From: Candidatus Wolfebacteria bacterium GWA1_42_9
GTDB lineage: Bacteria; Patescibacteriota; Minisyncoccia; UBA6257; JAGOQP01
Assembly: GCA_001793775.1 (NCBI GenBank)
Contig: MGIN01000027.1
Coordinates: 9,855-36,066, forward strand
Length of the DNA: 26,212 nt
Direction: 5' to 3'
Shown here: one piece after another, positions 7,892 through 19,405 of the stretch
Layout of the letters: each line of letters begins with the position of its first letter
Numbering within the stretch: position 1 is the stretch's first letter
Notes under the pieces: generated by a model
Seen by the model: only the letters and a program-made list of their open reading frames with translations
The model's database searches: none
Told to the model about the DNA's origin: nothing
Program-made: the position numbers and the translations under genes

Positions 7892-10255
7892 ATGGATCTA
7901 ATCAGAAAAAACAAAAAATTTATCTCCAAGGCGCTTTTGATTGTTTTTGTTCTGGTGCCGGTCTTGTATTTTGGGGTAAATATTCAGCATGCGAACGCGC
8001 AGTTTCTGAATATCGCAGGCTTTGCCATCAAATCCGTCCTCAATTTAGTTACATTTTTACTTGGAATTGTTCAGTGGATAGTCGGCGTTGTTTTAATCAA
8101 GTTGGGCGCCATTCTTGTCGGTTTTGTTCTGCTTATTAATCAAACCCTACTGAAGGATTTAAATAACGACCATTTTGTTGTTATCGGTTGGAGGGTTTTC
8201 AGGGATTTGGCCAACCTGGGATTCGTCTTAGGAATAATAATTATCGCCATCTCCACTATCTTGAGATTTAAAACCTATGCCTATCAAAACCTTCTTCCCA
8301 AGTTAATCATTGCCGCCCTGGTGATTAATTTTAGCCTGGTAATCGCCGGTTCCATTATCAGTGTCTCCGACATATTTTCCAACTTCTTCATAAGTTACAT
8401 CTCCGGGAGAGGATCGGACTCATCGGCCATTTCCACCGTCTCTCAGCAGATAGTTGACAGATTTAATTATGTAAAACTTGCTGTCCCGGGGAGTGGTTCT
8501 TCTGGGCAGTGTTCTGTCTATAAAGAAGGCTGGTCGGCGCAAAGAATAGAAGAGGTTTGCCAAGACGAGGCTAGCTGGGAAGCCGCCGGTCAGGATTTTA
8601 GTAGTCCGGAAAATTGCCGAGCTAATCTTCCCGCCTTAATGTGTGCCCAGCGGGCTGGCGCTGACACCCAAGACGTTCCGGATAAGGAATTCTATGCTCA
8701 AATACAAAAAGACAATCTTTCCAATAACTTGTATCAAATAGGAGGAGTTTTTATCTCCGTGGTGGTGGGATTTTTCATATTTTTGAGTCTTCTAGCTTTA
8801 GCCGGCGGATTATTTTTGAGATATTTTTATCTAGCTTTTCTTCTGATTGTTTCTCCTTTGGTTTGGGTACTTTGGGTGTTTCCTTATACAAGAGGCCATT
8901 GGAAAAAATGGTGGGAATCGTTCATTAAATGGACTTTCTTTGCCCCCGTTGTCCTGTTTTTTCTGTACCTGACATTGATTTTCTTGTCCAAGAGCAGCGG
9001 GGGCTATGGGAGCAAGGCCGATGAGATAGCGCTCACGTCCGGTACCAGCATTGCTGGAGTTGGATTCTCTAATATAATAGTTCCTCTTATGGCGGGAGCA
9101 TTGCTTTTCGCCGGGTTAAAAATTTCCCAGACGATGGGATTTGCCGGAGCGTCGTTTGTTCTGAATAGGGCCGAGAAGATGGGGGGGTGGGCGAGGACGA
9201 AGGCGGTTAGAGGAGCTCAAAGAGGAGGGGCGCTGGCTATGAGAAGTAAACCCGGACAATGGGTTAAAAAACCATTGGCAACTTTTGGCGCTACTAAAGT
9301 TGGAAGATTTCTGGGTGCCGGCAAAGCAGCTCAAGGGTTGGAAGCGGCAACGGTTAAACTGGAAAGAAAATCTCAGGCTTATCTTGAAGACAAAAAGAAA
9401 TCTTTTGGAACAATGTCTTCGGAAAATATCGTCGGTTTGTGGAAAACAATGACGGGTGAGGAGCAGGCGGCAGCGATGGAAGTTTTGGCCTCCAGAAACG
9501 ACCTAGGCGATCTCAAAGACCAGAATATGACCACTATCGGTGGTTCTTTGGCAGCAATGAGAAGATTCGGAAGAGAGAAGGAAGCCAAAGAACTTGAAAG
9601 AAAATTGGGAATGAATCAAACAATGGCTGAACGATTAAAAATTTTAAACACTTCCGCCCGGGGTTCGGCAGAACATACCCAGGCGCTGGCAGAGTACAGA
9701 AGAGCGGCCGCCGACCATTACGGTAAATACTCCACCGATCACTGGAGAGATTTCGGGTCTAACTTGGGAAACAATGTTTTTTCGGGAAGAACCTTCGGCG
9801 GGTTGAGAGACGATGTTTATCAGGAAATGTCGGGCCAAGCCGCTCAGTATGCCAGCGATGATTACAGAAAATCGATTCACGCCATTGCTCCTAAAATGAG
9901 AAACAATACAAACCTCTCCAATTTCAATAAAGCCACCATCGAAAGAAAAATCGGGTGGCTGAGGGGACACGTCTCGGGTCTGGACTTATCAATCCCAGCC
10001 AACCAAGAACTATTGGGGCAGTTTAATAATTATGCCGCAGAGTTTGATAATGCCGTCAAGAACAAAAACGGCGACTTCTCTGATCTCGCTGAAATGATGA
10101 GTAAATGTGGAGACGCGAGTATCAGAGATTTTGCCAACCATATTAGGGGGCAAATCTCTGCCTTTGCGATGGGGGCTTATTCGGCGGCTCCGCCGACGCC
10201 GGGAGCGGCACCAACACCTACACCCACGCCGCCACCGACCGGGAAAGGGCCGTAA
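7892..10255 (+). CDS. VirB6/TrbL-like polytopic inner-membrane protein with a long C-terminal extension
   Basis: GWRVFRDLANLGF...LLPKLIIAALVINFSL and LRYFYLAFLLIVSPLVWVLWVFP...WKKWWESFIKWTFFAPV helices; ~370-aa hydrophilic tail ending in a Pro/Thr-rich stretch. Confidence 0.7.
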   Translation: MDLIRKNKKFISKALLIVFVLVPVLYFGVNIQHANAQFLNIAGFAIKSVLNLVTFLLGIVQWIVGVVLIKLGAILVGFVLLINQTLLKDLNNDHFVVIGWRVFRDLANLGFVLGIIIIAISTILRFKTYAYQNLLPKLIIAALVINFSLVIAGSIISVSDIFSNFFISYISGRGSDSSAISTVSQQIVDRFNYVKLAVPGSGSSGQCSVYKEGWSAQRIEEVCQDEASWEAAGQDFSSPENCRANLPALMCAQRAGADTQDVPDKEFYAQIQKDNLSNNLYQIGGVFISVVVGFFIFLSLLALAGGLFLRYFYLAFLLIVSPLVWVLWVFPYTRGHWKKWWESFIKWTFFAPVVLFFLYLTLIFLSKSSGGYGSKADEIALTSGTSIAGVGFSNIIVPLMAGALLFAGLKISQTMGFAGASFVLNRAEKMGGWARTKAVRGAQRGGALAMRSKPGQWVKKPLATFGATKVGRFLGAGKAAQGLEAATVKLERKSQAYLEDKKKSFGTMSSENIVGLWKTMTGEEQAAAMEVLASRNDLGDLKDQNMTTIGGSLAAMRRFGREKEAKELERKLGMNQTMAERLKILNTSARGSAEHTQALAEYRRAAADHYGKYSTDHWRDFGSNLGNNVFSGRTFGGLRDDVYQEMSGQAAQYASDDYRKSIHAIAPKMRNNTNLSNFNKATIERKIGWLRGHVSGLDLSIPANQELLGQFNNYAAEFDNAVKNKNGDFSDLAEMMSKCGDASIRDFANHIRGQISAFAMGAYSAAPPTPGAAPTPTPTPPPTGKGP

Positions 10256-11255: not shown

Positions 11256-11801
11256 ATGGCTCAGTTTGAAGTTCCCCAATTTATTGATGTCGAGAGTAAA
11301 ATTGTCGGGCCGCTGACATTAAAGCAGTTTGGTCTGATTGCCGTTCCCAGTTTAGCCTCTTTTTTCCTCTTTTTTGTTTTAGCCAGATTTCTCTGGGTGA
11401 TCGTTGCTTTTATTTTGGTAATGGCGGGAGTTCTTTTCGCTTTTATTAAAATTGGCGGCCGACCACTATATTTGATAACTATCTACGCCTTCCAATTCCT
11501 TTGGAAACCAAAGCTTTATTTATGGCGAAGGGCGGTGGTTCAGGAAGAAATCGCCATTCCTTCTCCGGCGGGAGGCCTTTCAGCGGTTTCGGCCAAGAGA
11601 AATGCTTTAAAGTCGGCAGCAACGGGAGTTTACGGAAGCGTCACCAAGCTCTGGCAGAACCTGACGACCACTAAAAACCCCATTCCCAAAAGGGAAAAAG
11701 CGGTTCCCAAAAAATCCATCTCTGAGATTAAGGAGCAGTATATGGTTTTTCGAAAAGTCAGTGGAGAAAGAGAAGTGGCTAAAAGAGTGGATTATAGATA
11801 A
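11256..11801 (+). CDS. PrgI-family (VirB3-like) membrane protein
   Basis: QFEVPQFIDVESKIVGPLTLKQF N-terminus followed by two TM helices and IKIGGRP; lies before the VirB4-like genes. Confidence 0.85.
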   Translation: MAQFEVPQFIDVESKIVGPLTLKQFGLIAVPSLASFFLFFVLARFLWVIVAFILVMAGVLFAFIKIGGRPLYLITIYAFQFLWKPKLYLWRRAVVQEEIAIPSPAGGLSAVSAKRNALKSAATGVYGSVTKLWQNLTTTKNPIPKREKAVPKKSISEIKEQYMVFRKVSGEREVAKRVDYR

Positions 11802-11826
11802 AACGTTCTTATTAGTTAATTTGTTG

Positions 11827-11835
11827 TGTTATAAT
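11827..11835 (+). promoter_or_regulatory. Extended -10 promoter, probably giving a leaderless mRNA
   Basis: TGTTATAAT ends 7 nt before the ATG at 11843. Confidence 0.6.
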
Positions 11836-11842
11836 CTCACAT

Positions 11843-12532
11843 ATGTCCGATAAAACCGCGGAAAAAATCATTACCCCACCGAATTCCACCCAGCAATTTG
11901 TTGACGTGGAAGAAGTAAAAGACGGAATTGTTATTCTTAAAGGAGGTTCTTTAAGGGCGGTGATTATGGTCGCTGGCATTAACTTTGAGCTTAAATCCGA
12001 AGAGGAGCAGGACATTATTACCGGCGCCTACCAGGATTTTCTTAACTCCCTGGATTTTTCGGTGCAAATTATCATCCATTCCCGAAAACTGAATATAGAT
12101 AATTATCTCAGGAAAATGGAAGAGGTTCGTTCCAGGGAACCAAACGAGCTTCTGCGTAATCAGATTGATGAATATATCGCTTTTGTCAGGGGTTTTGTCA
12201 AAGAAAACGAGATTATGACAAAAACTTTTTTTGTGGTTGTTCCCTATGAGGCTGGTGGGGCGGAAGCGATTAGAAAAGGGGTTATGGATTTTGTTCCCTT
12301 TCTCAGTTCAAAGAAAAAGTCTGACAAAAAAAAGACAGAAAGCCGGGAGCAGGGTGTTATTCAGTTAAGACAGAGGATAGATCAGGTAGCTTCCGGTCTG
12401 GAAAGAATTGGTTTGCGAGCCGTTCCTTTAAATGACGAGGAACTGATAGAGCTTTACTACAATCTTTATAATCCAGAGACGACAGAGAAGGAGCTTCCTA
12501 AAAAAGAAACTTCTCCCAATCCTGAATCCTAA
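11843..12532 (+). CDS. Protein resembling the VirB4/TraE N-terminal domain, without an ATPase motif
   Basis: TQQFVDVEEVKDG, INFELKSEEEQ, FLNSLDFSVQIIIHSRKLNI, and FFVVVPY; sits between PrgI and the VirB4 ATPase. Confidence 0.7.
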   Translation: MSDKTAEKIITPPNSTQQFVDVEEVKDGIVILKGGSLRAVIMVAGINFELKSEEEQDIITGAYQDFLNSLDFSVQIIIHSRKLNIDNYLRKMEEVRSREPNELLRNQIDEYIAFVRGFVKENEIMTKTFFVVVPYEAGGAEAIRKGVMDFVPFLSSKKKSDKKKTESREQGVIQLRQRIDQVASGLERIGLRAVPLNDEELIELYYNLYNPETTEKELPKKETSPNPES

Positions 12533-12600
12533 TTACAAATACCAAATGAAAATTCAGATGTTAAAATCCCATATTTGGAATTAGATATTAGAACTTTGAC
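12518..12600. repeat. Imperfect inverted arrangement of ~7-nt-periodic repeats
   Basis: AAT at 12518, 12525, 12531, 12538 and 12545; ATT at 12573, 12580 and 12587 on the opposite arm. Confidence 0.5.
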
Positions 12601-12614
12601 GTTAAATATACTAT

Positions 12615-14369
12615 ATGCCCGAGGAAATTAAAATTGTTAAACCCTACAGTAGCGAAGAAAAAGAGGTTAAGAATCTAATTGCCCCAGCCGCTTTGGAGGT
12701 TAATCAGAGTCATATTAAAATTGGCAATAAGTTTGCCAAAACTCTTTTTGTTTTTTCTTATCCCCGCTATCTCTCCAGTGGTTGGTTTTCTTCTATCATC
12801 AATGTCGCCAAACTTTTTGACATCTCCATTTTTGTTCATCCGATTGATACTGCCTTAGCTCTCAGGCGTCTTCGCAAAAAAGCGGCTCAGATTGAAGCCG
12901 AGATCACCGAAAAGGAATCCAAGGGTTTTGTCCGTGATCCGATGCTGGAAACGGCCTTTGCCGATATTGAATCTTTGCGGGACAATCTTCAACAAGCCCG
13001 GGAACGTCTTTTTGACACGGCGGTTTACATTACTATTTACGGCGATTCTTTGGAAAAATTGAATGAATTGGAAGAAATCGTCACCAATCTTTTTGAGAGC
13101 AAATTAATTTACGTTAAGCCGGCCATCTTTCAGCAGGTGGAAGGATTGATTTCCGCTCTTCCTCTTTGTCAGGACAAATTAGCCATTCGTACTCCCCTAA
13201 ACTCGGGACCAATCTCCTCTTTCTTCCCTTTTGTTTCTATGGATCTGACCTCGGAGGAAGGAATCATGTACGGTATCAACCAGCACAATAGCACCCTGGT
13301 TATTTTTGACAGGTTTTCTCTGGAAAACGGCAACATGGTGGTTTTTGCCAAATCCGGCGGAGGAAAATCTTACGCTTCCAAACTGGAAATTTTGAGGTCG
13401 CTGATGATAGGCACCGAGGTAATCGTCATTGATCCGGAAAACGAATATAAAAATCTTTGTGATACGGTGGGAGGAACTTATTTCAAAATTTCCTTGACCT
13501 CTGACCAGCACATCAATCCTTTTGACATTCCTGTTGTTCCCGAGGGAGAAGATTCGGCCGGTGTTTTTAAATCCCATATTCTGACATTGACCGGACTTTT
13601 GAAGATAATGCTGGGTGATATAACCGTTGAAGAAGAGGCGATTTTGGATAGAGCTCTGACCGAAACATACGCTTCCCGCGACATTACTCCCGACAATCCT
13701 AATTTTCTCAACTTGGAAGCGCCGATTTTGTCCGATTTTGAAACGGTTCTGCGAAACATGGAGGGTGGACGGTCAATGGCCGACAAGCTTTATCGCTTTA
13801 CTCAAGGAACTTACTCGGGATTTGTCAATCAGAAAACTAACGTGGATGTAAACAATCGACTGGTGGTTTTCTCCATCAGGGATTTGGAGGAAGAACTGCG
13901 GCCGGTGGCCATGTATGTTATTTTGAATTTTATCTGGAATCTGGTGCGCTCTCAGTTAAAGAGAAGAGTTTTAGTGGTGGACGAGGCCTGGGTGATGATG
14001 AAGTATCCCGAGGGTGCCGCCTTTCTTTTTGCTCTCGCCAAAAGGGGAAGAAAATATTATCTGGGGCTGACAACCATCACTCAAGAGGTGGAAGATTTTT
14101 TGAGTTCTCCTTACGGCAAGCCGATTATCACCAACTCATCGCTTCAGCTGCTTTTGAAGGAAGCTCCGGCCAGCATTGATATTGTTGCCAAAACTTTTGG
14201 TCTAACCGAAGCGGAAAAAAATCTTTTATTGGAGGCGGGAGTGGGACAGGGATTGTTTTTTGCCGGACTAAAACACGTGGCTATTCAGGTGGTCGCTTCC
14301 TACTTTGAAGACAAGGTGATTACCACCAAACCCCAGCAGTTATTGGGAGAAGAAACGCAGTTGATATAA
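12615..14369 (+). CDS. VirB4/TraC/ConE-like ATPase
   Basis: YGIN, Walker A AKSGGGKS (13347-13370), VIDPENEY, INPFD, Walker B VVDEAW, KRGRKY, TITQEVEDF and G.GQGLFF motifs. Confidence 0.9.
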   Translation: MPEEIKIVKPYSSEEKEVKNLIAPAALEVNQSHIKIGNKFAKTLFVFSYPRYLSSGWFSSIINVAKLFDISIFVHPIDTALALRRLRKKAAQIEAEITEKESKGFVRDPMLETAFADIESLRDNLQQARERLFDTAVYITIYGDSLEKLNELEEIVTNLFESKLIYVKPAIFQQVEGLISALPLCQDKLAIRTPLNSGPISSFFPFVSMDLTSEEGIMYGINQHNSTLVIFDRFSLENGNMVVFAKSGGGKSYASKLEILRSLMIGTEVIVIDPENEYKNLCDTVGGTYFKISLTSDQHINPFDIPVVPEGEDSAGVFKSHILTLTGLLKIMLGDITVEEEAILDRALTETYASRDITPDNPNFLNLEAPILSDFETVLRNMEGGRSMADKLYRFTQGTYSGFVNQKTNVDVNNRLVVFSIRDLEEELRPVAMYVILNFIWNLVRSQLKRRVLVVDEAWVMMKYPEGAAFLFALAKRGRKYYLGLTTITQEVEDFLSSPYGKPIITNSSLQLLLKEAPASIDIVAKTFGLTEAEKNLLLEAGVGQGLFFAGLKHVAIQVVASYFEDKVITTKPQQLLGEETQLI

Positions 14370-14480
14370 TGCGAAGGCTGTAAATTGTGAACCCAACTTT
14401 TTATTCTATGGAAAATGTTGGTTGCGGGTTGGTAAATTTGTATACTGGTAATCAATTTGTCATTCGTCGGTTGTGTTGTT

Positions 14481-14963
14481 ATGAATGAAAAAGAACAAAA
14501 AAGTGAAAAGACTCAACAAAGAACAGAGATGTTGGATAAGCAGGGAGGAGAGACAGAGGAAAGCAACGAAACGGAAAACAAAGAAGGCGAGACAGGAGAG
14601 AACGAAGATGGGACATCAGAAAAAATCGAATCCCTGCAACAGGGTCCCCGTTTTGATTTCATGGAATCTTTTTTTTATGTGTCGATGGCTGTTTTGAGCG
14701 ATATATTTGACGGCCTATGGATATCAAGATTTTTCTTTGCTCCCGCTACCCTGCTCTGGCTTTATATGAAAGGGCTTAATAACGTGATTTCAAAAAATGC
14801 CATTGCCCAAGGAGTAGAACTCATTCCAGTCATAGGATTTTTGCCATTGAGCACCATAGCTGCGATTTTAACTATTTGGGTCACCAACAATCCCGAATCA
14901 TTTAACAAGGTTTTTGGCATAGCTGGAAAAATTTTCCAAAAAATAGCTAAAAAGGGAAAATAA
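14481..14963 (+). CDS. Small membrane protein with an acidic, disordered N-terminus
   Basis: ATG at 14481 is in frame with the called ORF (14457). Glu/Lys/Gly-rich first ~50 aa, then hydrophobic helices including ELIPVIGFLPL. Confidence 0.75.
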   Translation: MNEKEQKSEKTQQRTEMLDKQGGETEESNETENKEGETGENEDGTSEKIESLQQGPRFDFMESFFYVSMAVLSDIFDGLWISRFFFAPATLLWLYMKGLNNVISKNAIAQGVELIPVIGFLPLSTIAAILTIWVTNNPESFNKVFGIAGKIFQKIAKKGK

Positions 14964-14971
14964 GTGAATTA

Positions 14972-14980
14972 TGCTATAAT
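14972..14980 (+). promoter_or_regulatory. Extended -10 promoter, probably giving a leaderless mRNA
   Basis: TGCTATAAT ends 7 nt before the ATG at 14988. Confidence 0.6.
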
Positions 14981-14987
14981 ATATAAG

Positions 14988-15701
14988 ATGAGTTTTAAAA
15001 AGATAAAAATTTTAATACTTGTTATCGGCACCATGGCTGTCTTTTGGACCGTTAACCTGGCTTTGGCCGCCGAGCCGCTCTTACTTTTTTCCTGGAAAGC
15101 CCAGAACTTCGTTCCTGATTGGTTTGGAGGAAAATCTTTGCCTATCAACCAGACAAAAATTTTAATGTCCTTTGAAGCTGTCAGCCAGAGCCAAGCGGAT
15201 TTGGGTAAGATTATGGACGTCTCGGAAAAGGAGATTAGCTGGTATGTCAACGATAAAACGGTAGGTAAAGGGAAAGGATTAAAGTCTGTTACCGTTACCA
15301 AAGACGATTTTCCCCGGGATTCCATTGATGTCAAGATTAAGGGGGAGTTTTATGACGCTGATGCCAAAGAGAGTTATTTTGTCAACAAGTATTTTACCGT
15401 CCCTATCTCTGAACCGGAAATTGTTTTAAGCTACAAGAAAACGGAAAACTATTTTTCTTTGAACGAGACGGCTAGATTTGATCTATTTCCTTTCTTTTTT
15501 AACGTTGCCAGCGATTTTTTGGATATTGGATGGAGAGTGAATGAGCGGGAGATTAATCCTTTGCTCAGGGAGAATCTTTTTTTAGATTTGAAAGTGTCGG
15601 ATATGCCTCCCACTGGGCAGGTGAGAATTAGTGCTTCTGCCAAAAATGCCAGAGATGTGCTGGAAGATGCCTCTAAGTCGCTGATTTTTAAAGTTTATTA
15701 G
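14988..15701 (+). CDS. Secreted or surface protein, beta-strand-rich (possibly Ig-like)
   Basis: MSFKKIKILILVIGTMAVFWTVNLALA-AEP is a typical signal peptide. ATG at 14988 is preferred over the GTG at 14964. Confidence 0.8.
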   Translation: MSFKKIKILILVIGTMAVFWTVNLALAAEPLLLFSWKAQNFVPDWFGGKSLPINQTKILMSFEAVSQSQADLGKIMDVSEKEISWYVNDKTVGKGKGLKSVTVTKDDFPRDSIDVKIKGEFYDADAKESYFVNKYFTVPISEPEIVLSYKKTENYFSLNETARFDLFPFFFNVASDFLDIGWRVNEREINPLLRENLFLDLKVSDMPPTGQVRISASAKNARDVLEDASKSLIFKVY

Positions 15702-15715
15702 TATTAACTGCGTTC

Positions 15716-15760
15716 GCGGATTTACCCTCAAAAATTTTATCTGATAAAACTTAGGAGGGT
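15716..15760. repeat. ~45-bp palindromic element, intergenic copy (second copy inside mutM)
   Basis: ACCCTC/GAGGGT outer stem and TTTTATC-T-GATAAAA inner stem; 36/45 identical to 19928-19972; followed by 9-mers AACTGATTC AACTGATTG ATGCTGATA. Confidence 0.85.
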
Positions 15761-15796
15761 GAACTGATTCAACTGATTGATGCTGATAAAACTACT

Positions 15797-16834
15797 ATGA
15801 TGAATACTCTGGGGAAAATAATTATTATATTGGCCGTTGTCCTGATGGGGGTGAGTTTTTTTGCGGAGGCGGTTTTGGCGGAAACCTTTAATTTGGAGTA
15901 CCCGGATTTTGTCAACCCGGAGATAACCAAAACTCCGGCTGAGTTTATCAACAAGCTCTATATCTATGCTTTGGGGATATCAGGCACTTTGGCGGTGATG
16001 ATGATTGTTTACGGAGGGGTGAAATACGCTATTAATCCGGGAAACACATCGGCCCAGGGAGACGCCACCGACATTATCAAAAACGCTGTTTTTGGAGTTG
16101 TTCTCTTGGCAGGCGCCTATTTGATTTTGGAAACGATTAATCCGTCGCTGGTGATTTTAAAGAATCCGGGATTGGAAATGGTGCCAGTGTCAACCAGCAC
16201 TGAAGGAACAACTCCTCCACCCACAAAAGAAGAGGCTACCGAACTTATTAGAGTGGCTAAGTGGCTGTTGGATAATGAGGGTGGTAAATTTAGTTTTTCT
16301 GTCAACGCGACTTGCGGATCCATCTCCCATGCCAAAGGAAATCTGACAGATGTATCCAACGGAGAACTTCCTCTGGTCTGCAGTCCGGATTGTGTTTGTA
16401 AAAAAGGAGGAACGAGCGGGACGGTTACGTTAAATCTTAAGATGCTTAAAGGTCTCCAGTTTATTGTTATTAATTCCACCGTTCCGAAATCTGTGATTAC
16501 TAGTTTTACCGGAGGAAAACACAATACTACCTCTCAACACTACCAAGGGAACGCTGCCGACTTCTCTCCGGTGAATACCAGTCCGGACCAATGGGATAAA
16601 TTATTAACTAGTTTAAGAAACCCGAACGCCGGAGAAGCTTCTCTGGCTAAATGCGAGGCTCGTAAGTGGACGGATACTAATGGCAATGGTCAGAAAGATT
16701 CTCGAAAATCTGAGAGCAATCCTAATGGAGACGAGTACTCGACCGAGTTTTATAATTTTTGTTCTGATCTTTTTAATAACGCCTCATATCTTACTGGCAA
16801 GTTGGATAATATTCATATACATGCCAACTGGTAA
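15797..16834 (+). CDS. VirB2/TrbC-like CPR pilin domain fused to a C-terminal M15-type (LAS) zinc peptidase domain
   Basis: After a signal peptide: two hydrophobic helices with a YGGVKY...GN...A..IIKNAVFG...LILETINP pilin pattern. C-terminus has SQHYQGNAAD (SxHxxGxAxD, 16532-16561) and HIH (16814-16822). Confidence 0.8.
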   Translation: MMNTLGKIIIILAVVLMGVSFFAEAVLAETFNLEYPDFVNPEITKTPAEFINKLYIYALGISGTLAVMMIVYGGVKYAINPGNTSAQGDATDIIKNAVFGVVLLAGAYLILETINPSLVILKNPGLEMVPVSTSTEGTTPPPTKEEATELIRVAKWLLDNEGGKFSFSVNATCGSISHAKGNLTDVSNGELPLVCSPDCVCKKGGTSGTVTLNLKMLKGLQFIVINSTVPKSVITSFTGGKHNTTSQHYQGNAADFSPVNTSPDQWDKLLTSLRNPNAGEASLAKCEARKWTDTNGNGQKDSRKSESNPNGDEYSTEFYNFCSDLFNNASYLTGKLDNIHIHANW

Positions 16835-16836
16835 TC

Positions 16837-18069
16837 ATGTCTTCTAAAAAAAAGAAAGTCACAATATTGATTATTTTGGTCGTCCTGGCGGCGGCGGGGG
16901 CAGGAACTTTTTTTGCTTTAAAGTCTGGCGTAACTATTCCTTTTCTGGGACTATCTGAACAGCTAAGCAAACAGCCGGGAGTGGATATAGGCAAGAAACC
17001 TGTTTTGCAGCCGCCACAACAGGACAAAGATGTTTATGTGGAAGAAGACGACCTGGCAGCTTATTACCAAGAGCAAAAACAGAAACTTTTTGCTTTAACC
17101 GCCGAGCCAATAATTGACTATTGGGTAGCTTCTTCCACGGCCATTGGTGACACTGCCACCTCCTCCATTCTGGCGGCCAGTGTTTTTTATATCAATGAAA
17201 AAGGAGACATTCTTCAGGTTAAAGAGACGGGGAAGGCATCACCGATAGTTTCTTCTTCCTTTGGAAAACCCCTCTGGCTTAAACAAAACGTCTTAGGGAG
17301 CCAGATAGCGGTTAAGTTTGAATCGGGGAAATTTGTCTTGTTTGACGTCAAGAACAAATCCTGGCGGGAAATGGAAGACGGAGTAACGGCGGTGGATTTC
17401 TCTCCCGATGGCCAGAGAATCGCCTTTCTCAAGGAGAATCAAAGTCAGACATCGGTTTATATTCAAGACTTGGCCAAGGCTAAACAACCGGTAACTTTAA
17501 TAGTTTCTCTGACAGCGGTTGACTTTAATCTCCTGTGGACAGAAACCGGCTCGTTGGCACTGACACCCAAACCCTCTTATTTTGTTAACGGCCAAGCTTG
17601 GCTGATTAATTTGAGTTCTCGCTCTCTTCGCTGGCTGGGAGGAGGCAGTGGTTACTCTTTGGTTTTTTCTTCTCCGTTTAACTTCGGCCTGGAATTTTCC
17701 AGCTCTGCAAGAACAGAAAGTAAGATTGGTTTGATTGATAAGTCGGGAAAATCACTAGCGGAACTTTCCTTCTCCACCGTGGCAGATAAATGCTCTTTTT
17801 CTTTGGAAAAAAAGGTAGCTTTCTGTGCCGTTCCTTATTCTGCCAACAAATCCTCTGGGTTGGTTTTGCCGGACGACTTTTTAAAAAGAGCTGTTTACTT
17901 TAAGGATGAGATTTATCGGATAGATCTTGAATCTTCGGCGGTGGATATTGTTTTTGATCTGGAAGATACCCTTTTTGATATGGTTGATATCAAACACCGG
18001 AGCGACCAGCTGTTCTTCATTAATCGCTACGATAATCAACTCTACCTCTACAATCTAGGATCATTATAA
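16837..18069 (+). CDS. Membrane-anchored TolB/WD40-like beta-propeller protein
   Basis: KKKK followed by an N-terminal TM helix; VDFSPDGQRIAFL blade motif and repeated beta-strand pattern. Confidence 0.7.
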   Translation: MSSKKKKVTILIILVVLAAAGAGTFFALKSGVTIPFLGLSEQLSKQPGVDIGKKPVLQPPQQDKDVYVEEDDLAAYYQEQKQKLFALTAEPIIDYWVASSTAIGDTATSSILAASVFYINEKGDILQVKETGKASPIVSSSFGKPLWLKQNVLGSQIAVKFESGKFVLFDVKNKSWREMEDGVTAVDFSPDGQRIAFLKENQSQTSVYIQDLAKAKQPVTLIVSLTAVDFNLLWTETGSLALTPKPSYFVNGQAWLINLSSRSLRWLGGGSGYSLVFSSPFNFGLEFSSSARTESKIGLIDKSGKSLAELSFSTVADKCSFSLEKKVAFCAVPYSANKSSGLVLPDDFLKRAVYFKDEIYRIDLESSAVDIVFDLEDTLFDMVDIKHRSDQLFFINRYDNQLYLYNLGSL

Positions 18070-18070
18070 A

Positions 18071-19405
18071 ATGAATAAGGAGAACCCCCACAGTTCAAAA
18101 CTGACTAAATATTTGAACCAGCCTGAGTTTCGGCCGGTTTTTTATCTGGTGCCTTTGATTGCGGCGGCGGCCGTCATTAACGTCATCTATCTTTCGGGAA
18201 TTTGGCTTTTTGTCAGCACCGGTATTTTAATCATTTCGGGGGCGTTGATGGTGGCTATTAGTTGGGTCCTAGCCAAAGCCAATTTAAACATTAAAATCAA
18301 AACTCTTCAGATGGACAGTATTATTTCCCATCTGCCATCGGGAGTTTTGGCCTATGACAATGACTTCAACGTTTTAATCTTTAATCCGGCCGCTCAGGAA
18401 ATTTTTGGCCTTTCCCAATCAGAAATTTTTGCAAGAAAGCTTTCAGCGGAGATGGCCTCCGACCCGAAATTCAAACTCCTGGCTCAGGTCATTTTTCCCT
18501 CTTTGGCGCCGACGGTTGTCAAAAGATCGGAGCCGGGAACCTATCCCCAGATAGTGGACATTTCTTTTAGCGACCCCTCTTTGGATTTGAGAGTAGTGAC
18601 CGACCGGGTTGCCGACGAAACGGGAAAGATAACCGGTTTTGTTAAATTAATCACTAACCGCACCCGGGAGATGGAACTTTTAAAGTCAAAAACCGAATTC
18701 ATCACCGTCGCCGCCCATCAACTAAGAACTCCTTTAACCGCCATTAACTGGTCGTTTGAATCGCTGGAATCGGCCAATCTTCCTCCCCAACAGAAGGAAT
18801 TAGTAGACACCGGATTTATGGCTGCCAAGAAAATGCTTAAAACCGTCAACGACCTTCTGGACGTTTCCAAAATCGAAGAGGGAAAATTCGGCTATCAATT
18901 TGAAGAGGTCAATCTGGTCTCTTACCTGGAGGAAATATTGGCTCAGAGCAACGATTTCGCCAAACAACTCGGAATTAAGCTTTATTTTCAAAGGCCGGCC
19001 AATTCCAATCTGATGGTCTTCATGGACAAACAGAAAGTAAGCATGGTTCTTTCCAATCTTTTGGACAATGCCATTAAATACAATGTGGAAAACGGGGAAG
19101 TGACGGTGTCGGTTGAAGAGGAAAAAGACGAGCCTTTTATTAGAGTTTCAGTTAAAGATACGGGCATCGGTATCCCCGCTGATCAGATAGATAAGTTATT
19201 CACTAAATTCTTCCGGGCTGAAAATGTTGCCCGGTATTCTCCCGACGGAACAGGGATGGGCCTTTATATTGCCAGAAACGTCGTTGTTCGCCACGGTGGG
19301 CGGATTTGGGCCGAGTCGGAATTGAACCGGGGAACCACTTTTTATTTTACCTTACCGACTAAACAAGAAGTTATTCCCAAAAGGGAAATGATAGAGTTTG
19401 AGTAA
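18071..19405 (+). CDS. Sensor histidine kinase (two TM helices, PAS, HisKA, HATPase_c), no cognate response regulator in the window
   Basis: H box VAAHQLRTPLT, N box NLLDNAIKY, G1 DTGIGIP, F box LFTKFFRA, G2 GTGMGLYIA; PAS-like FNPAAQEIFG. Confidence 0.93.
   Translation: MNKENPHSSKLTKYLNQPEFRPVFYLVPLIAAAAVINVIYLSGIWLFVSTGILIISGALMVAISWVLAKANLNIKIKTLQMDSIISHLPSGVLAYDNDFNVLIFNPAAQEIFGLSQSEIFARKLSAEMASDPKFKLLAQVIFPSLAPTVVKRSEPGTYPQIVDISFSDPSLDLRVVTDRVADETGKITGFVKLITNRTREMELLKSKTEFITVAAHQLRTPLTAINWSFESLESANLPPQQKELVDTGFMAAKKMLKTVNDLLDVSKIEEGKFGYQFEEVNLVSYLEEILAQSNDFAKQLGIKLYFQRPANSNLMVFMDKQKVSMVLSNLLDNAIKYNVENGEVTVSVEEEKDEPFIRVSVKDTGIGIPADQIDKLFTKFFRAENVARYSPDGTGMGLYIARNVVVRHGGRIWAESELNRGTTFYFTLPTKQEVIPKREMIEFE

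What the first reader, a model, noticed from the sequence alone, without database searches (positions are those of the whole stretch)
15797..16834. Pilin fused to a putative cell-wall-cutting M15/LAS zinc peptidase
Seen: signal peptide, VirB2/TrbC-like hydrophobic hairpin, Thr/Pro linker (STSTEGTTPPPT), then a six-Cys domain with complete SxHxxGxAxD and HxH motifs. Established: H-x6-D plus H-x-H is the Zn-binding signature of M15-type D-Ala-D-Ala and L-Ala-D-Glu peptidases acting on peptidoglycan, and T4SSs normally use a separate VirB1-type hydrolase. Inference: an enzyme-bearing minor pilin that carries a peptidoglycan hydrolase to the filament or contact site, letting an epibiont breach or remodel its host's wall. 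This is the best candidate for an undescribed system here.
Basis: partly seen in the sequence, partly recalled or inferred. Interest (0 to 1): 0.82.

Follow-up and report, generated by a model that had tools for sequence, protein, structure and literature searches.

The report
Pilin fused to Hedgehog-like peptidase
In an ultra-small groundwater bacterium (Parcubacteria/CPR), the pilin gene of the type IV secretion cluster carries an outward-facing zinc-peptidase domain of the Hedgehog/cell-wall-peptidase fold. A near-identical strain has a different domain at the same spot, which suggests an exchangeable wall-cutting tool on a secretion machine whose job is still unknown.

Summary
ORF 15797-16834 (345 aa) has five parts:
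- a signal peptide;
- a T4SS_pilin hairpin (PF18895, above Pfam's threshold);
- a Thr/Pro linker;
- a six-Cys C-terminal domain;
- within that domain, S-x-H-x-x-G-x-A-x-D and H-I-H motifs.

A 110-sequence profile of the C-terminal domain matches the Sonic hedgehog N-domain (E 1.9e-7). Its model (pLDDT 91.6) is closest to ShhN (Z 7.9) and the Streptomyces albus Zn DD-peptidase (Z 6.6). The residues aligned with Shh H135, H141, D148, E177, H181 and H183 are all conserved.

The fusion is common. 98 of 125 domain relatives carry the pilin module, and others carry SLT, amidase or PG-binding domains. The gene occupies a fixed slot in a conserved cluster (VirB3, split VirB4, two unknowns, pilin, propeller-like protein, kinase). 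In that slot relatives carry the same domain, two copies of it, PKD+SLT, unidentified domains or nothing. A strain with about 90% DNA identity switches cargo inside the linker.

Best reading: a pilin-tethered peptidoglycan peptidase serving the T4SS. Catalysis, target wall and filament display are untested, and "minor pilin" is unresolved. The fusion was not described in the papers searched. Supplementary data of Wang et al. 2023 list a Hedgehog/DD-peptidase domain in an essential T4SS-locus protein. This scan has found the same fusion many times on other DNA.

The parts
15797..16834 (+). Whole gene: pilin-peptidase fusion, 345 aa plus stop codon
   Evidence: ORF list and translation. Contigs of three groundwater runs cover it without differences.
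15797..15880 (+). Sec-type signal peptide (residues 1-28, likely cleavage after AVLA)
   Evidence: Hydrophobic segment centred on residues 10-22 and helix 2-27 in the model. The cleavage site is inferred from the sequence.
15929..16150 (+). T4SS pilin module: two hydrophobic helices (about 47-79 and 84-114), a short loop and the conserved TINP motif
   Evidence: PF18895 matches residues 45-111 at E 5.5e-10, above the cut-off. Helices as in the model. It is the most conserved region among 8 orthologues: 66% mean identity, against 35% for the cargo.
16151..16225 (+). Disordered Thr/Pro linker (STSTEGTTPPPT at 16190-16225). DNA similarity to a near-isogenic strain with another cargo ends at about 16200.
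   Evidence: pLDDT below 50 for residues 120-138. blastn of L017 against the window gives 88% identity up to 16200 and none after that.
16226..16831 (+). C-terminal Hedgehog/DD-peptidase-fold (LAS, M15A-like) zinc-peptidase domain with six conserved Cys
   Evidence: Profile A4 against PDB matches ShhN at E 1.9e-7. The domain model has pLDDT 91.6. VIA Z is 7.9 for ShhN and 6.6 for 1lbu, and all five chains with Z of 5 or more are LAS enzymes. AFDB 'Peptidase M15A C-terminal domain' clusters match at E 5e-7. Atlas neighbours reach TM 0.61-0.63.
16520..16561 (+). H242 (aligned with Shh H135) and the motif S246-x-H248-Y-x-G-x-A-x-D255 (aligned with Shh zinc ligands H141 and D148)
   Evidence: Residue-by-residue alignment to Shh. 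Conservation: H242 in 109/110; S246, H248 and D255 in 110/110, though those three were used to select the sequences.
16655..16657 (+). E287, in the C-E pair that aligns with the Shh catalytic Glu (E177 as numbered in PMC6027127)
   Evidence: HMM alignment to Shh. E in 87 and D in 16 of 110 sequences; this residue was not used for selection.
16658..16750 (+). 31-residue hydrophilic insertion (residues 288-318) found only in this protein, directly after the catalytic Glu
   Evidence: Gap in all other orthologues. Low pLDDT for residues 295-312.
16814..16822 (+). H340-I-H342 motif (aligned with Shh H181 and H183), four residues from the C-terminus
   Evidence: H342 is D in 3 of 110 sequences.
11256..14369 (+). 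T4SS core upstream: PrgI/VirB3-like (11256-11801), TraC-like N-domain as a separate ORF (11843-12532) and VirB4 P-loop ATPase (12615-14369)
   Evidence: Pfam hits. The same split is seen in relatives.
14457..15701 (+). Two conserved genes of unknown function (168 aa and 245 aa) that precede the pilin slot in most orthologous clusters
   Evidence: tblastn synteny in L004-L012, with the 168-aa gene undetected in L008 and L012. No Pfam or NCBIfam family.
16837..19405 (+). Downstream partners in the same operon-like string: a 410-aa anchored protein with weak TolB/DPPIV propeller hits, and a PAS-HisKA-HATPase kinase
   Evidence: Gaps of 2 nt and 1 nt. Pfam and NCBIfam hits. The 410-aa gene follows the pilin gene in L002-L012 and the kinase in all of those except L012.
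15705..15792 (.). 88-bp intergenic insertion absent from the near-isogenic strain. It contains a dispersed repeat of about 50 bp (15714-15763) and an AGGAGG motif 39 nt upstream of the start codon.
   Evidence: L017 goes from the end of the 245-aa gene to the pilin start in 3 nt. Several contigs in each of three runs share only 15714-15763 and then run on into unrelated sequence. Sequence read directly.

Best explanation
The gene encodes a peptidoglycan peptidase tethered by a pilin module and dedicated to the chromosomal type IV secretion system of a Parcubacteria (CPR) bacterium.

Proposed mechanism:
1. The Sec system exports the protein and the signal peptide is removed.
2. The VirB2-like hairpin inserts in the cytoplasmic membrane with both ends outside.
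3. This places the C-terminal domain on the outer face, where three disulfides can form.
4. That domain binds one zinc through H248, D255 and H342. It uses E287, H242 and H340 to hydrolyse a bond in a peptidoglycan stem peptide or cross-link.
5. The highly conserved hairpin docks the enzyme to the T4SS, or is polymerised by it. Wall cutting therefore happens where the machine or pilus must pass.
6. The wall in question is the cell's own and possibly the host's at the contact site. This supplies the VirB1-like function that the cluster otherwise lacks.
7. The enzyme part is an exchangeable cassette joined at the linker.

Shown here: the domain architecture, fold and residue conservation, the cluster position, and the cargo exchange.
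Inferred: zinc binding, catalysis, the substrate bond, the topology, docking or polymerisation, and which wall is cut.
For: Pilin module:
- PF18895 matches above its cut-off.
- The hairpin is the most conserved region, at 66% mean identity against 35% for the cargo and 19% for the signal peptide. That is more than a passive anchor would need.

Enzyme domain:
- The profile matches ShhN at E 1.9e-7, aligning the H-x6-D, Glu and H-x-H positions.
- These residues, together with H242 and E287, are conserved across 110 representatives.
- The domain model has pLDDT 91.6.
- Its best structural matches are all LAS enzymes or Hedgehog: ShhN 7.9, 1lbu 6.6, T5 endolysin 5.1, Ply500 5.0, VanX 4.9, MepA 4.9.
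- AFDB M15A clusters match at E 2e-7 to 5e-7.
- Atlas neighbours at TM 0.61-0.63 include proteins with PG_binding_1 and PG_binding_3.

Link to the cell wall:
- Relatives of the domain are fused to SLT, Amidase_2, PG_binding_1 and PG_binding_3.
- One pilin carries both SLT and this domain.

Link to the T4SS:
- The gene holds a fixed slot after VirB4 in clusters whose VirB4 is 80-90% identical.
- The cluster has no other recognisable hydrolase and the assembly has no SLT match.

Precedent:
- In Southlakia epibionticum, SEML1_0007 lies next to virB4 and has a C-terminal Hedgehog/DD-peptidase domain. It is scored essential in Tn-seq (supplement of PMC10633639).
- PMC12102498 notes that peptidase and lysozyme homologues next to virB4 are essential there.
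Against: - There is no biochemical evidence for any member of this family.
- Hedgehog itself, the closest solved relative, has long been treated as a pseudo-protease, a view disputed in PMC6027127. An intact site therefore does not prove catalysis.
- Foldseek E-values against PDB are not significant (best 0.12), and VIA Z values of 7-8 are only middling by that tool's own notes.
- The domain is patchy. It was found in 12 of 201 sampled genomes of the class and in none of 7 same-order genomes.
- One orthologous cluster has a cargo-less pilin (L011). The enzyme is therefore not a core requirement of the machine.
- Nobody has shown that PF18895 proteins form a filament.
- I could not measure the modelled His/Asp/His distances, because no coordinates were available.
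Confidence: 0.58

Rival explanations
1. Host-directed enzyme displayed on a filament. The protein is polymerised into a T4SS pilus, alone or with short pilins. This carries the peptidase on the filament surface to the host cell, where it opens the host's wall for attachment, feeding or effector or DNA passage.
For: - The C-terminus of the hairpin faces outward, so a C-terminal cargo could be displayed (inferred topology; from general knowledge, C-terminal additions to F-pilin are tolerated).
- The cargo changes between near-isogenic strains, with flanks 88-93% identical.
- The cargo also changes among orthologous clusters. This pattern is typical of molecules that meet another organism.
- A complete relative genome has seven short pilins that could form the shaft.
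- Other pilin modules carry subtilase or GH5 domains, which make little sense for self-wall remodelling.
Against: - No pilus has been shown for this pilin family.
- No other pilin is detectable in this assembly. A filament here would carry a 200-residue domain on every subunit.
- Nothing in the sequence tells host wall from own wall.
- The bacterium makes its own peptidoglycan (Mur ligase in the window).
Confidence: 0.22
2. Non-catalytic binding module. The Hedgehog-like domain uses its zinc cleft to bind a ligand (peptidoglycan or a host surface molecule) and acts as an adhesin or sensor, as is often argued for animal Hedgehog.
For: - The closest solved relative is a signalling ligand.
- The gene is butted against an anchored propeller-like protein and a histidine kinase, and this arrangement is conserved in relatives. 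That would fit a sensing role.
- This protein has its own 31-residue insertion next to the catalytic Glu.
Against: - The full catalytic set, including the Glu (E or D in 103/110) and H242 (109/110), is kept across very divergent members. This is the pattern expected of active enzymes.
- Domain partners elsewhere are hydrolases and PG-binding modules.
Confidence: 0.1
3. Pro-protein. The linker is cut after export. This releases a soluble wall hydrolase or effector and leaves a normal short pilin. The fusion would then be a way to co-express and co-export the two parts.
For: - The Thr/Pro linker is disordered.
- Cargo-less pilins in the same slot end shortly after the TINP motif (L011).
- From general knowledge, TrbC of RP4 is trimmed at its C-terminus during maturation, and VirB1 is processed to a secreted VirB1* fragment.
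Against: - No conserved cleavage motif was seen in the linker, which has 28% mean identity.
- No protease gene is evident in the cluster.
Confidence: 0.1

Closest known systems
VirB2-like pilins of the Patescibacteria T4SS (Pfam PF18895 T4SS_pilin), e.g. the essential pilin array SEML1_0014-0019 of Ca. Southlakia epibionticum (PMC10633639; survey in PMC12102498)
   Same: - Same Pfam family, above the cut-off.
- Signal peptide plus two-helix hairpin.
- Encoded with VirB3/VirB4-type genes of an MPF-FATA-like chromosomal T4SS that lacks a relaxase.
   Different: - Those pilins are about 105-140 aa (312-417 bp in the Wang et al. table) and have no cargo. This one has a 200-residue enzyme domain after a linker.
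- It is a single gene in the cluster, not part of an array.
- Neither paper describes pilin-enzyme fusions.
Hedgehog N-terminal domain and the Hh/DD-peptidase group: ShhN, bacterial 'bacHh' (PMC6027127), and the MEROPS M15A zinc D-Ala-D-Ala carboxypeptidase of Streptomyces albus G (PDB 1lbu)
   Same: - Significant profile match to ShhN (E 1.9e-7).
- Same fold by structural alignment (Z 7.9 and 6.6).
- Same H-x6-D, Glu and H-x-H positions.
   Different: - Only about 20% identity to ShhN, whereas bacHh are over 50% identical.
- The Glu is separated from H-x-H by an insertion that includes a conserved Cys.
- The domain has six conserved Cys.
- The calcium sites of Shh and bacHh were not examined.
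- PF01085 does not hit this protein, and hits only 2 of 125 relatives.
SEML1_0007 of Ca. Southlakia epibionticum ML1 (supplementary tables of PMC10633639)
   Same: - Encoded directly beside virB4.
- A C-terminal Hedgehog/DD-peptidase domain (residues 951-1105, template Shh 6n7g).
- Scored essential for epibiotic growth.
   Different: - It is a protein of about 1110 aa with no Pfam pilin hit reported.
- I could not obtain its sequence, so homology to this domain and the presence of a hairpin are untested.
- Long relatives of the window's domain (for example P0057, 1156 aa) have a large N-terminal part, then a PF18895 hairpin, then this domain. The same design in SEML1_0007 is therefore plausible, but it is inferred.
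VirB1-type T4SS wall hydrolases and their Gram-positive counterparts (PrgK of pCF10, TraG of pIP501, TcpG of pCW3; cited in PMC12102498)
   Same: - A wall hydrolase encoded in the T4SS cluster and held at the membrane by an N-terminal hydrophobic anchor.
- Some pilin fusions carry SLT, or SLT plus this peptidase, which recalls the two-domain hydrolases of monoderm T4SSs.
   Different: - Those enzymes are lysozyme-like glycosidases, with or without CHAP or LytM domains. This one is an LAS zinc peptidase, and its anchor is a pilin module.
- It works like them at most; it is not a member of that family.
Modular type IV pilins of Streptococcus sanguinis (PilB, PilC; PMC9934059)
   Same: The principle is the same: a pilin module with a functional module grafted on its C-terminal end.
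   Different: - Those belong to a different, unrelated filament system (type IV pili, not T4SS).
- The grafted modules there are binding domains, not wall hydrolases. The detail here is from general knowledge; only the term 'modular pilin' was checked.

Membership tests
T4SS pilin (Pfam PF18895; VirB2/TrbC-like) | Match to the family HMM above the curated cut-off | tested here: met
   39.6 bits against a cut-off of 26.6, E 5.5e-10, residues 45-111. A weak NCBIfam hit to the Mycoplasma ICE pilin-like family NF045849 (E 0.023, below its cut-off).
T4SS pilin (Pfam PF18895; VirB2/TrbC-like) | Signal peptide followed by two hydrophobic helices joined by a short loop | tested here: met
   Hydropathy peaks at residues 10-22, about 64 and about 105. 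Model helices at 2-27, 47-79 and 84-114.
T4SS pilin (Pfam PF18895; VirB2/TrbC-like) | Encoded with T4SS core genes (VirB4, VirB3, VirB6-like) | tested here: met
   PrgI, TraC-like N-domain and VirB4 lie upstream. The 787-aa protein hits a conjugal-transfer family. The order is conserved in L002-L012.
T4SS pilin (Pfam PF18895; VirB2/TrbC-like) | Polymerises into an extracellular filament | not testable with these tools
   No experimental filament is known for PF18895. The structural hit to the Aeropyrum conjugative pilus (Z 6.7) sits among non-specific helical-hairpin hits.
LAS / Hedgehog/DD-peptidase fold (MEROPS M15, closest to M15A) | H-x6-D and H-x-H zinc motifs | tested here: met
   H248-x6-D255 and H340-I-H342. 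Both were present in 110 of 124 relatives examined.
LAS / Hedgehog/DD-peptidase fold (MEROPS M15, closest to M15A) | Significant sequence similarity to a member with a solved structure | tested here: met
   Profile A4 against ShhN gives E 1.9e-7 and 34 bits. The 8-sequence profile gave E 1.5e-3.
LAS / Hedgehog/DD-peptidase fold (MEROPS M15, closest to M15A) | Fold: central antiparallel sheet with the zinc cleft on one face and helices on the other | tested here: met
   In the pLDDT 91.6 model, all five chains with Z of 5 or more are Hedgehog or LAS enzymes, and ranks 1-15 are all this fold. The Z values are middling, and Foldseek E-values against PDB are not significant.
LAS / Hedgehog/DD-peptidase fold (MEROPS M15, closest to M15A) | Catalytic acid/base residues (Shh E177 and H135 equivalents) | tested here: met
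   E287 aligns with the Shh Glu and is E or D in 103/110. H242 is kept in 109/110.
LAS / Hedgehog/DD-peptidase fold (MEROPS M15, closest to M15A) | The three ligands converge on a metal site; zinc is bound; peptide bonds are hydrolysed | not testable with these tools
The zinc co-folding job was not run by the tool.
Pfam Peptidase_M15_3 (PF08291) | Score above the gathering threshold | tested here: not met
   16.3 to 17.6 bits against a cut-off of 23.2. The protein is not filed as a member of this Pfam family.
bacHh (bacterial Hedgehog-like proteins, PMC6027127) | Over 50% identity to ShhN across about 145 residues, with identical zinc, calcium and Glu residues | tested here: not met
   About 20% identity to ShhN in structural alignment. 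PF01085 does not hit this protein. The calcium ligands were not examined.
VirB1-type T4SS hydrolase | Lysozyme-like (SLT) glycosidase domain | tested here: not met
   No SLT hit in this protein or in the assembly. The resemblance is functional only.

The most novel reading that the evidence does not exclude
The CPR type IV secretion system uses its cluster-encoded pilin as a carrier for exchangeable enzyme heads (peptidases, transglycosylases, possibly proteases and glycosidases). These heads ride on the pilus to the host cell surface. Strains swap heads by recombination in the linker to match different host envelopes. That would explain why an apparently non-conjugative T4SS is essential for epibiotic growth.
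Probability: 0.22. Interest if true: 0.85.

Novelty: new variant of a known kind. Interest (0 to 1): 0.6.

Why it matters
The T4SS is one of the few machines shown to be essential for the epibiotic life of a cultivated Patescibacterium, yet its role is described as completely unknown (PMC11665869). The published survey notes that most CPR genomes with VirB2-like pilins lack a VirB1 hydrolase (PMC12102498).

A pilin that carries the wall enzyme itself would fill that gap. It also gives concrete, assayable candidates for what the machine does at the cell surface.

The cargo exchange between strains of about 90% identity points to selection at the interface with another cell. The domain is also a clear bacterial relative of animal Hedgehog, with an intact site. 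That makes it a convenient model for the open question of whether Hedgehog-type sites are true peptidases.

Tried and rejected
- **Zinc co-folding.** Complex prediction with the domain plus Zn was counted but not folded. It is no evidence either way.
- **Zinc-site geometry.** Model coordinates are not exposed to scripts, so the His/Asp/His distances could not be measured.
- **Foldseek against PDB.** The best E-values were 0.57 for the whole model and 0.12 for the domain, both to ShhN. These are not significant alone. The fold assignment rests on the profile-sequence match and VIA.
- **Pfam M15_3.** The hit is below threshold, so the protein is not filed there.
- **Alternative cargo of P0003/L010/P0150** (conserved G-H-x-T-H-G-x-G-x-P-V-V-D-L and H-W/L-H-V). 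I found no match to profile A4 by hhalign (probability 5-11%) and none to PDB. It has only two homologues in the large protein database. The Atlas feature search gives only leads to M15_3 and HH_signal clusters. It stays unidentified.
- **L012 cargo.** hhalign probability was 1.5%, so it is also unidentified.
- **Southlakia SEML1_0007.** A search with the long relative P0057 returned no identifiable record.
- **Minor or major pilin.** No second pilin was found in G000 by PF18895, PF04956 or the hairpin itself. A complete relative has an array of seven short pilins, but that whole 16-kb region has no counterpart in the G000 assembly. The assembly is 86% complete, so this is unresolved.
- **Transcription.** One metatranscriptome holds contigs 91-96% identical to part of the cargo. 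They come from a relative, and DNA carry-over cannot be excluded.
Full report
**1. The observation**

ORF 15797-16834 on the + strand is open and encodes 345 residues.
- Three hydrophobic segments: a signal peptide ending AVLA|ETF near residue 28, and two helices centred near residues 64 and 105.
- The linker STSTEGTTPPPT at residues 132-143.
- Exactly six Cys, at 173, 195, 199, 201, 286 and 322.
- SQHYQGNAAD at 246-255 and HIH at 340-342.

Pfam places residues 45-111 in T4SS_pilin (PF18895) at E 5.5e-10 and 39.6 bits, above the 26.6-bit cut-off. The only Pfam hit in the C-terminal half is Peptidase_M15_3, and it falls below threshold.

In three groundwater metagenome runs, single contigs cross the pilin-cargo junction without a single difference. 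The fusion is therefore not an assembly chimera, although some of these runs may be the source of the window. The window comes from a 550-kb, 32-contig, 86%-complete genome. Its nearest named relatives are Parcubacteria, Paceibacterota and Wolfebacteria MAGs.

**2. The C-terminal domain**

A search of 1.8 billion cluster representatives with residues 140-345 found 120 relatives at E of 0.001 or better. Nearly all carry S-x-H-Y-x-G-x-A-x-D and H-I-H a few residues from the C-terminus.

Sequence evidence:
- A profile of 110 domain sequences (A4) matches the N-terminal domain of Sonic hedgehog at E 1.9e-7.
- The H-x6-D block aligns with the Shh zinc ligands.
- The family's conserved Cys-Glu pair aligns with the Shh catalytic Glu, E177 in the numbering of PMC6027127.

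Conservation:
- The motif residues were used to choose the sequences, so their invariance is partly by construction.
- H242 (109/110, aligned with Shh H135), E287 (E or D in 103/110) and the six Cys (96-107/110 each) were not used for selection, and they are conserved all the same.

Structural evidence:
- The domain model is confident (pLDDT 91.6, pTM 0.87).
- An exhaustive structural comparison puts ShhN first (Z 7.9). Next come Drosophila Hh (6.8), the Streptomyces albus zinc DD-peptidase 1lbu (6.6), the phage T5 and Ply500 L-Ala-D-Glu peptidases (5.1, 5.0), VanX (4.9) and MepA (4.9).
- Only five of 48,161 chains reach Z of 5 or more, and all five have this fold.
- AlphaFold DB clusters named 'Peptidase M15A C-terminal domain' match at E 2e-7 to 5e-7.
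- ESM Atlas neighbours at TM 0.61-0.63 include actinobacterial proteins with two peptidoglycan-binding domains.
- Foldseek E-values against PDB are not significant by themselves.

I conclude that the domain is an LAS-type zinc-peptidase domain of the Hedgehog/DD-peptidase (M15A-like) kind with a complete active-site set. Zinc binding and catalysis are inferred.

**3. How common the fusion is**

- Of 125 proteins related through the C-terminal domain, 98 also match PF18895.
- Other partners are SLT (5), PG_binding_1 (2), PG_binding_3, Amidase_2 and Ig-like domains.
- One protein joins pilin, SLT and this domain. Several long proteins have a large N-terminal part, then the pilin hairpin, then this domain.
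- In a sample of 201 genomes of the same class, every genome has PF18895 matches, usually four to eight. About one in five of the best-scoring open frames is 200 aa or longer.
- The Hedgehog-like domain itself was found in only 12 of the 201, and in none of seven same-order genomes.

The enzyme is thus a frequent but optional addition.

**4. Genomic setting and cargo exchange**

The gene lies in a co-oriented cluster between rsmA and mutM. In order, the cluster holds:
- four genes without a Pfam hit, one of which (787 aa) hits a Mycoplasma-ICE conjugal-transfer family;
- PrgI/VirB3;
- a TraC-like N-domain as a separate ORF;
- the VirB4 ATPase;
- two unknowns of 168 and 245 aa;
- the pilin fusion;
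- a 410-aa anchored protein with weak propeller hits;
- a PAS histidine kinase.

The same order, including the split VirB4, recurs in relatives whose VirB4 is 80-90% identical. In these orthologous clusters the gene between the 245-aa and 410-aa genes is always a PF18895 pilin, but its C-terminal part differs:
- the Hedgehog-like domain (L004, L005, L006, L009);
- two tandem copies of it (L007);
- PKD plus an SLT-type lysozyme-like domain (L008);
- an unidentified His/Asp-rich domain (L010);
- a 330-residue Cys-rich domain (L012);
- nothing (L011, 145 aa).

A more distant cluster (L013; VirB4 56% identical, flanking genes not detected) has a pilin with a coiled-coil tail downstream of VirB4.

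The sharpest case is contig L017, from a strain whose DNA is 88-93% identical to the window:
- Similarity covers the 245-aa gene (15152-15704).
- It covers the pilin module up to position 16200, which lies inside the linker at residue 135.
- It resumes at 17074 in the next gene.
- Between these points there is no DNA similarity, and L017 encodes the L010-type domain instead.
- The first 79 codons of the downstream gene are still alignable as protein but are diverged, so the 3' limit of the exchange is blurred.

**5. What the hairpin does**

Among eight orthologues the hairpin is the most conserved part of the protein:

| Region | Mean pairwise identity |
|---|---|
| Hairpin | 66% |
| Cargo | 35% |
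| Linker | 28% |
| Signal peptide | 19% |

A passive membrane anchor would not be expected to be held this tightly. I therefore infer specific contacts, either with the T4SS or between subunits.

Whether it is a 'minor' pilin is open:
- In this assembly it is the only pilin detectable by PF18895, PF04956 or its own hairpin.
- The complete genome of a relative (AP024682.1) has an array of seven short pilins 41 kb from the cluster.
- None of that 16-kb region has a counterpart in this 86%-complete assembly.

**6. Mechanism**

My best reading (confidence about 0.58) is a pilin-tethered peptidoglycan peptidase that serves the T4SS.
- Export and signal-peptide removal leave the hairpin in the membrane with the enzyme outside. 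There, three disulfides can form.
- The enzyme cuts a stem-peptide or cross-link bond where the machine or its pilus must cross a wall.
- Every characterised enzymatic member of this fold that matched the model acts on peptidoglycan stem peptides or their D-Ala-D-Ala precursor (general knowledge of M15 and M74 enzymes).
- The cluster has no other recognisable hydrolase, and the assembly has no SLT match. Two M23 peptidases lie elsewhere in the genome.

The rivals are filament display aimed at the host wall, a non-catalytic binding role, and release of the cargo by cleavage of the linker. The first and third are variants of the main reading rather than alternatives to it.

**7. Relation to what is known**

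The CPR T4SS, its MPF-FATA affinity and its VirB2-like pilins are published:
- The survey of 3,035 genomes reports that most genomes with pilins lack VirB1. It does not mention pilin-enzyme fusions in the text or in the supplements held (PMC12102498).
- Wang et al. 2023 showed that the T4SS and the pilin array are essential in Southlakia epibionticum.
- Their supplementary tables list SEML1_0007, next to virB4 and scored essential, with a C-terminal 'Hedgehog/DD-peptidase' domain. They list SEML1_0006 with lysozyme-like and cysteine-proteinase domains.

The association of this fold with the CPR T4SS therefore has a published trace, while the fusion to the pilin and the cassette exchange do not, in the papers I could search.

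Earlier notes of this scan describe the same fusion, the Hedgehog-like subtype and the near-isogenic swap in many other genomes. My results agree with them and were obtained independently on this window.

**8. Verdict**

This is a real gene and a real, widespread architecture. It is a new variant of known kinds (T4SS pilin plus LAS peptidase) rather than a new kind of system. Interest is moderate to high, because it offers a testable handle on an essential but unexplained machine.

Noticed in passing
window 15705-15792: An 88-bp intergenic insertion that is absent from the near-isogenic contig L017. Its core (15714-15763) is a dispersed repeat. In each of three runs, several contigs share only this stretch and then continue into unrelated sequence. 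It also carries an AGGAGG motif 39 nt upstream of the pilin start codon, too far away to serve as its ribosome-binding site.
   Followed up: partly
window 11843-12532 and 12615-14369: VirB4 is encoded as two ORFs: a TraC-like N-domain of 229 aa and a P-loop part of 584 aa. The split is conserved in every orthologous cluster examined, so it is not a frameshift artefact.
   Followed up: partly
window 7892-10255 and 15797-16834: The 787-aa protein hits the Mycoplasma ICE family MMCAP2_0566 (E 1.4e-6). The pilin weakly hits the Mycoplasma 'Mbov_0395 pilin-like conjugal transfer protein' family (E 0.023). Both are below their cut-offs. They hint that pilin-like proteins also exist in mollicute ICE T4SSs.
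   Followed up: no
window 16837-19405; L002-L012: The 410-aa anchored propeller-like protein follows the pilin slot in every orthologous locus examined, and the PAS histidine kinase (51-77% identity) follows it in all of them except L012. No response regulator is seen in the window.
   Followed up: partly
L018 (G201:C1:104000-120000): The complete relative genome AP024682.1 has an array of seven short pilins (ORFs of 128-167 aa), flanked by large ORFs of 437 and 831 aa, 41 kb from its T4SS cluster. Nothing in this 16-kb region has a counterpart in the window's own assembly, even at E 0.01.
   Followed up: partly
proteins P0132-P0149: PF18895 pilin modules also occur in proteins of about 650-1450 aa together with subtilase (PF00082) or GH5 cellulase (PF00150) domains. 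The range of pilin-borne enzymes therefore goes beyond wall hydrolases.
   Followed up: no
L010:110-1042, L017:561-1493, P0150: A second, unidentified cargo domain of about 170 aa has the invariant motifs C-T-S-x-E-G, G-H-x-T-H-G-x-G-x-P-V-V-D-L and H-W/L-H-V. It has very few homologues in a database of 5.8 billion proteins. Weak language-model leads point to M15_3 and Hedgehog-like clusters.
   Followed up: partly
window 16658-16750: A 31-residue hydrophilic insertion (rich in Asn, Gly, Lys and Ser) lies directly after the putative catalytic Glu. It is absent from all aligned orthologues and is modelled with low confidence.
   Followed up: no
window 16241-16589: A sediment metatranscriptome run holds two contigs 91-96% identical to part of the cargo domain, evidently from a relative. 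This is a hint that such genes are expressed, but it is not proof.
   Followed up: no
L007:8004-9845 and proteins P0027, P0043, P0064: Pilins of about 600 aa carry two tandem Hedgehog-like domains. The second copy has a variant motif (S-x-H-Y-S-G-x-[AS]-x-D). These proteins end in R-I-H-V or R-I-R instead of H-I-H.
   Followed up: no
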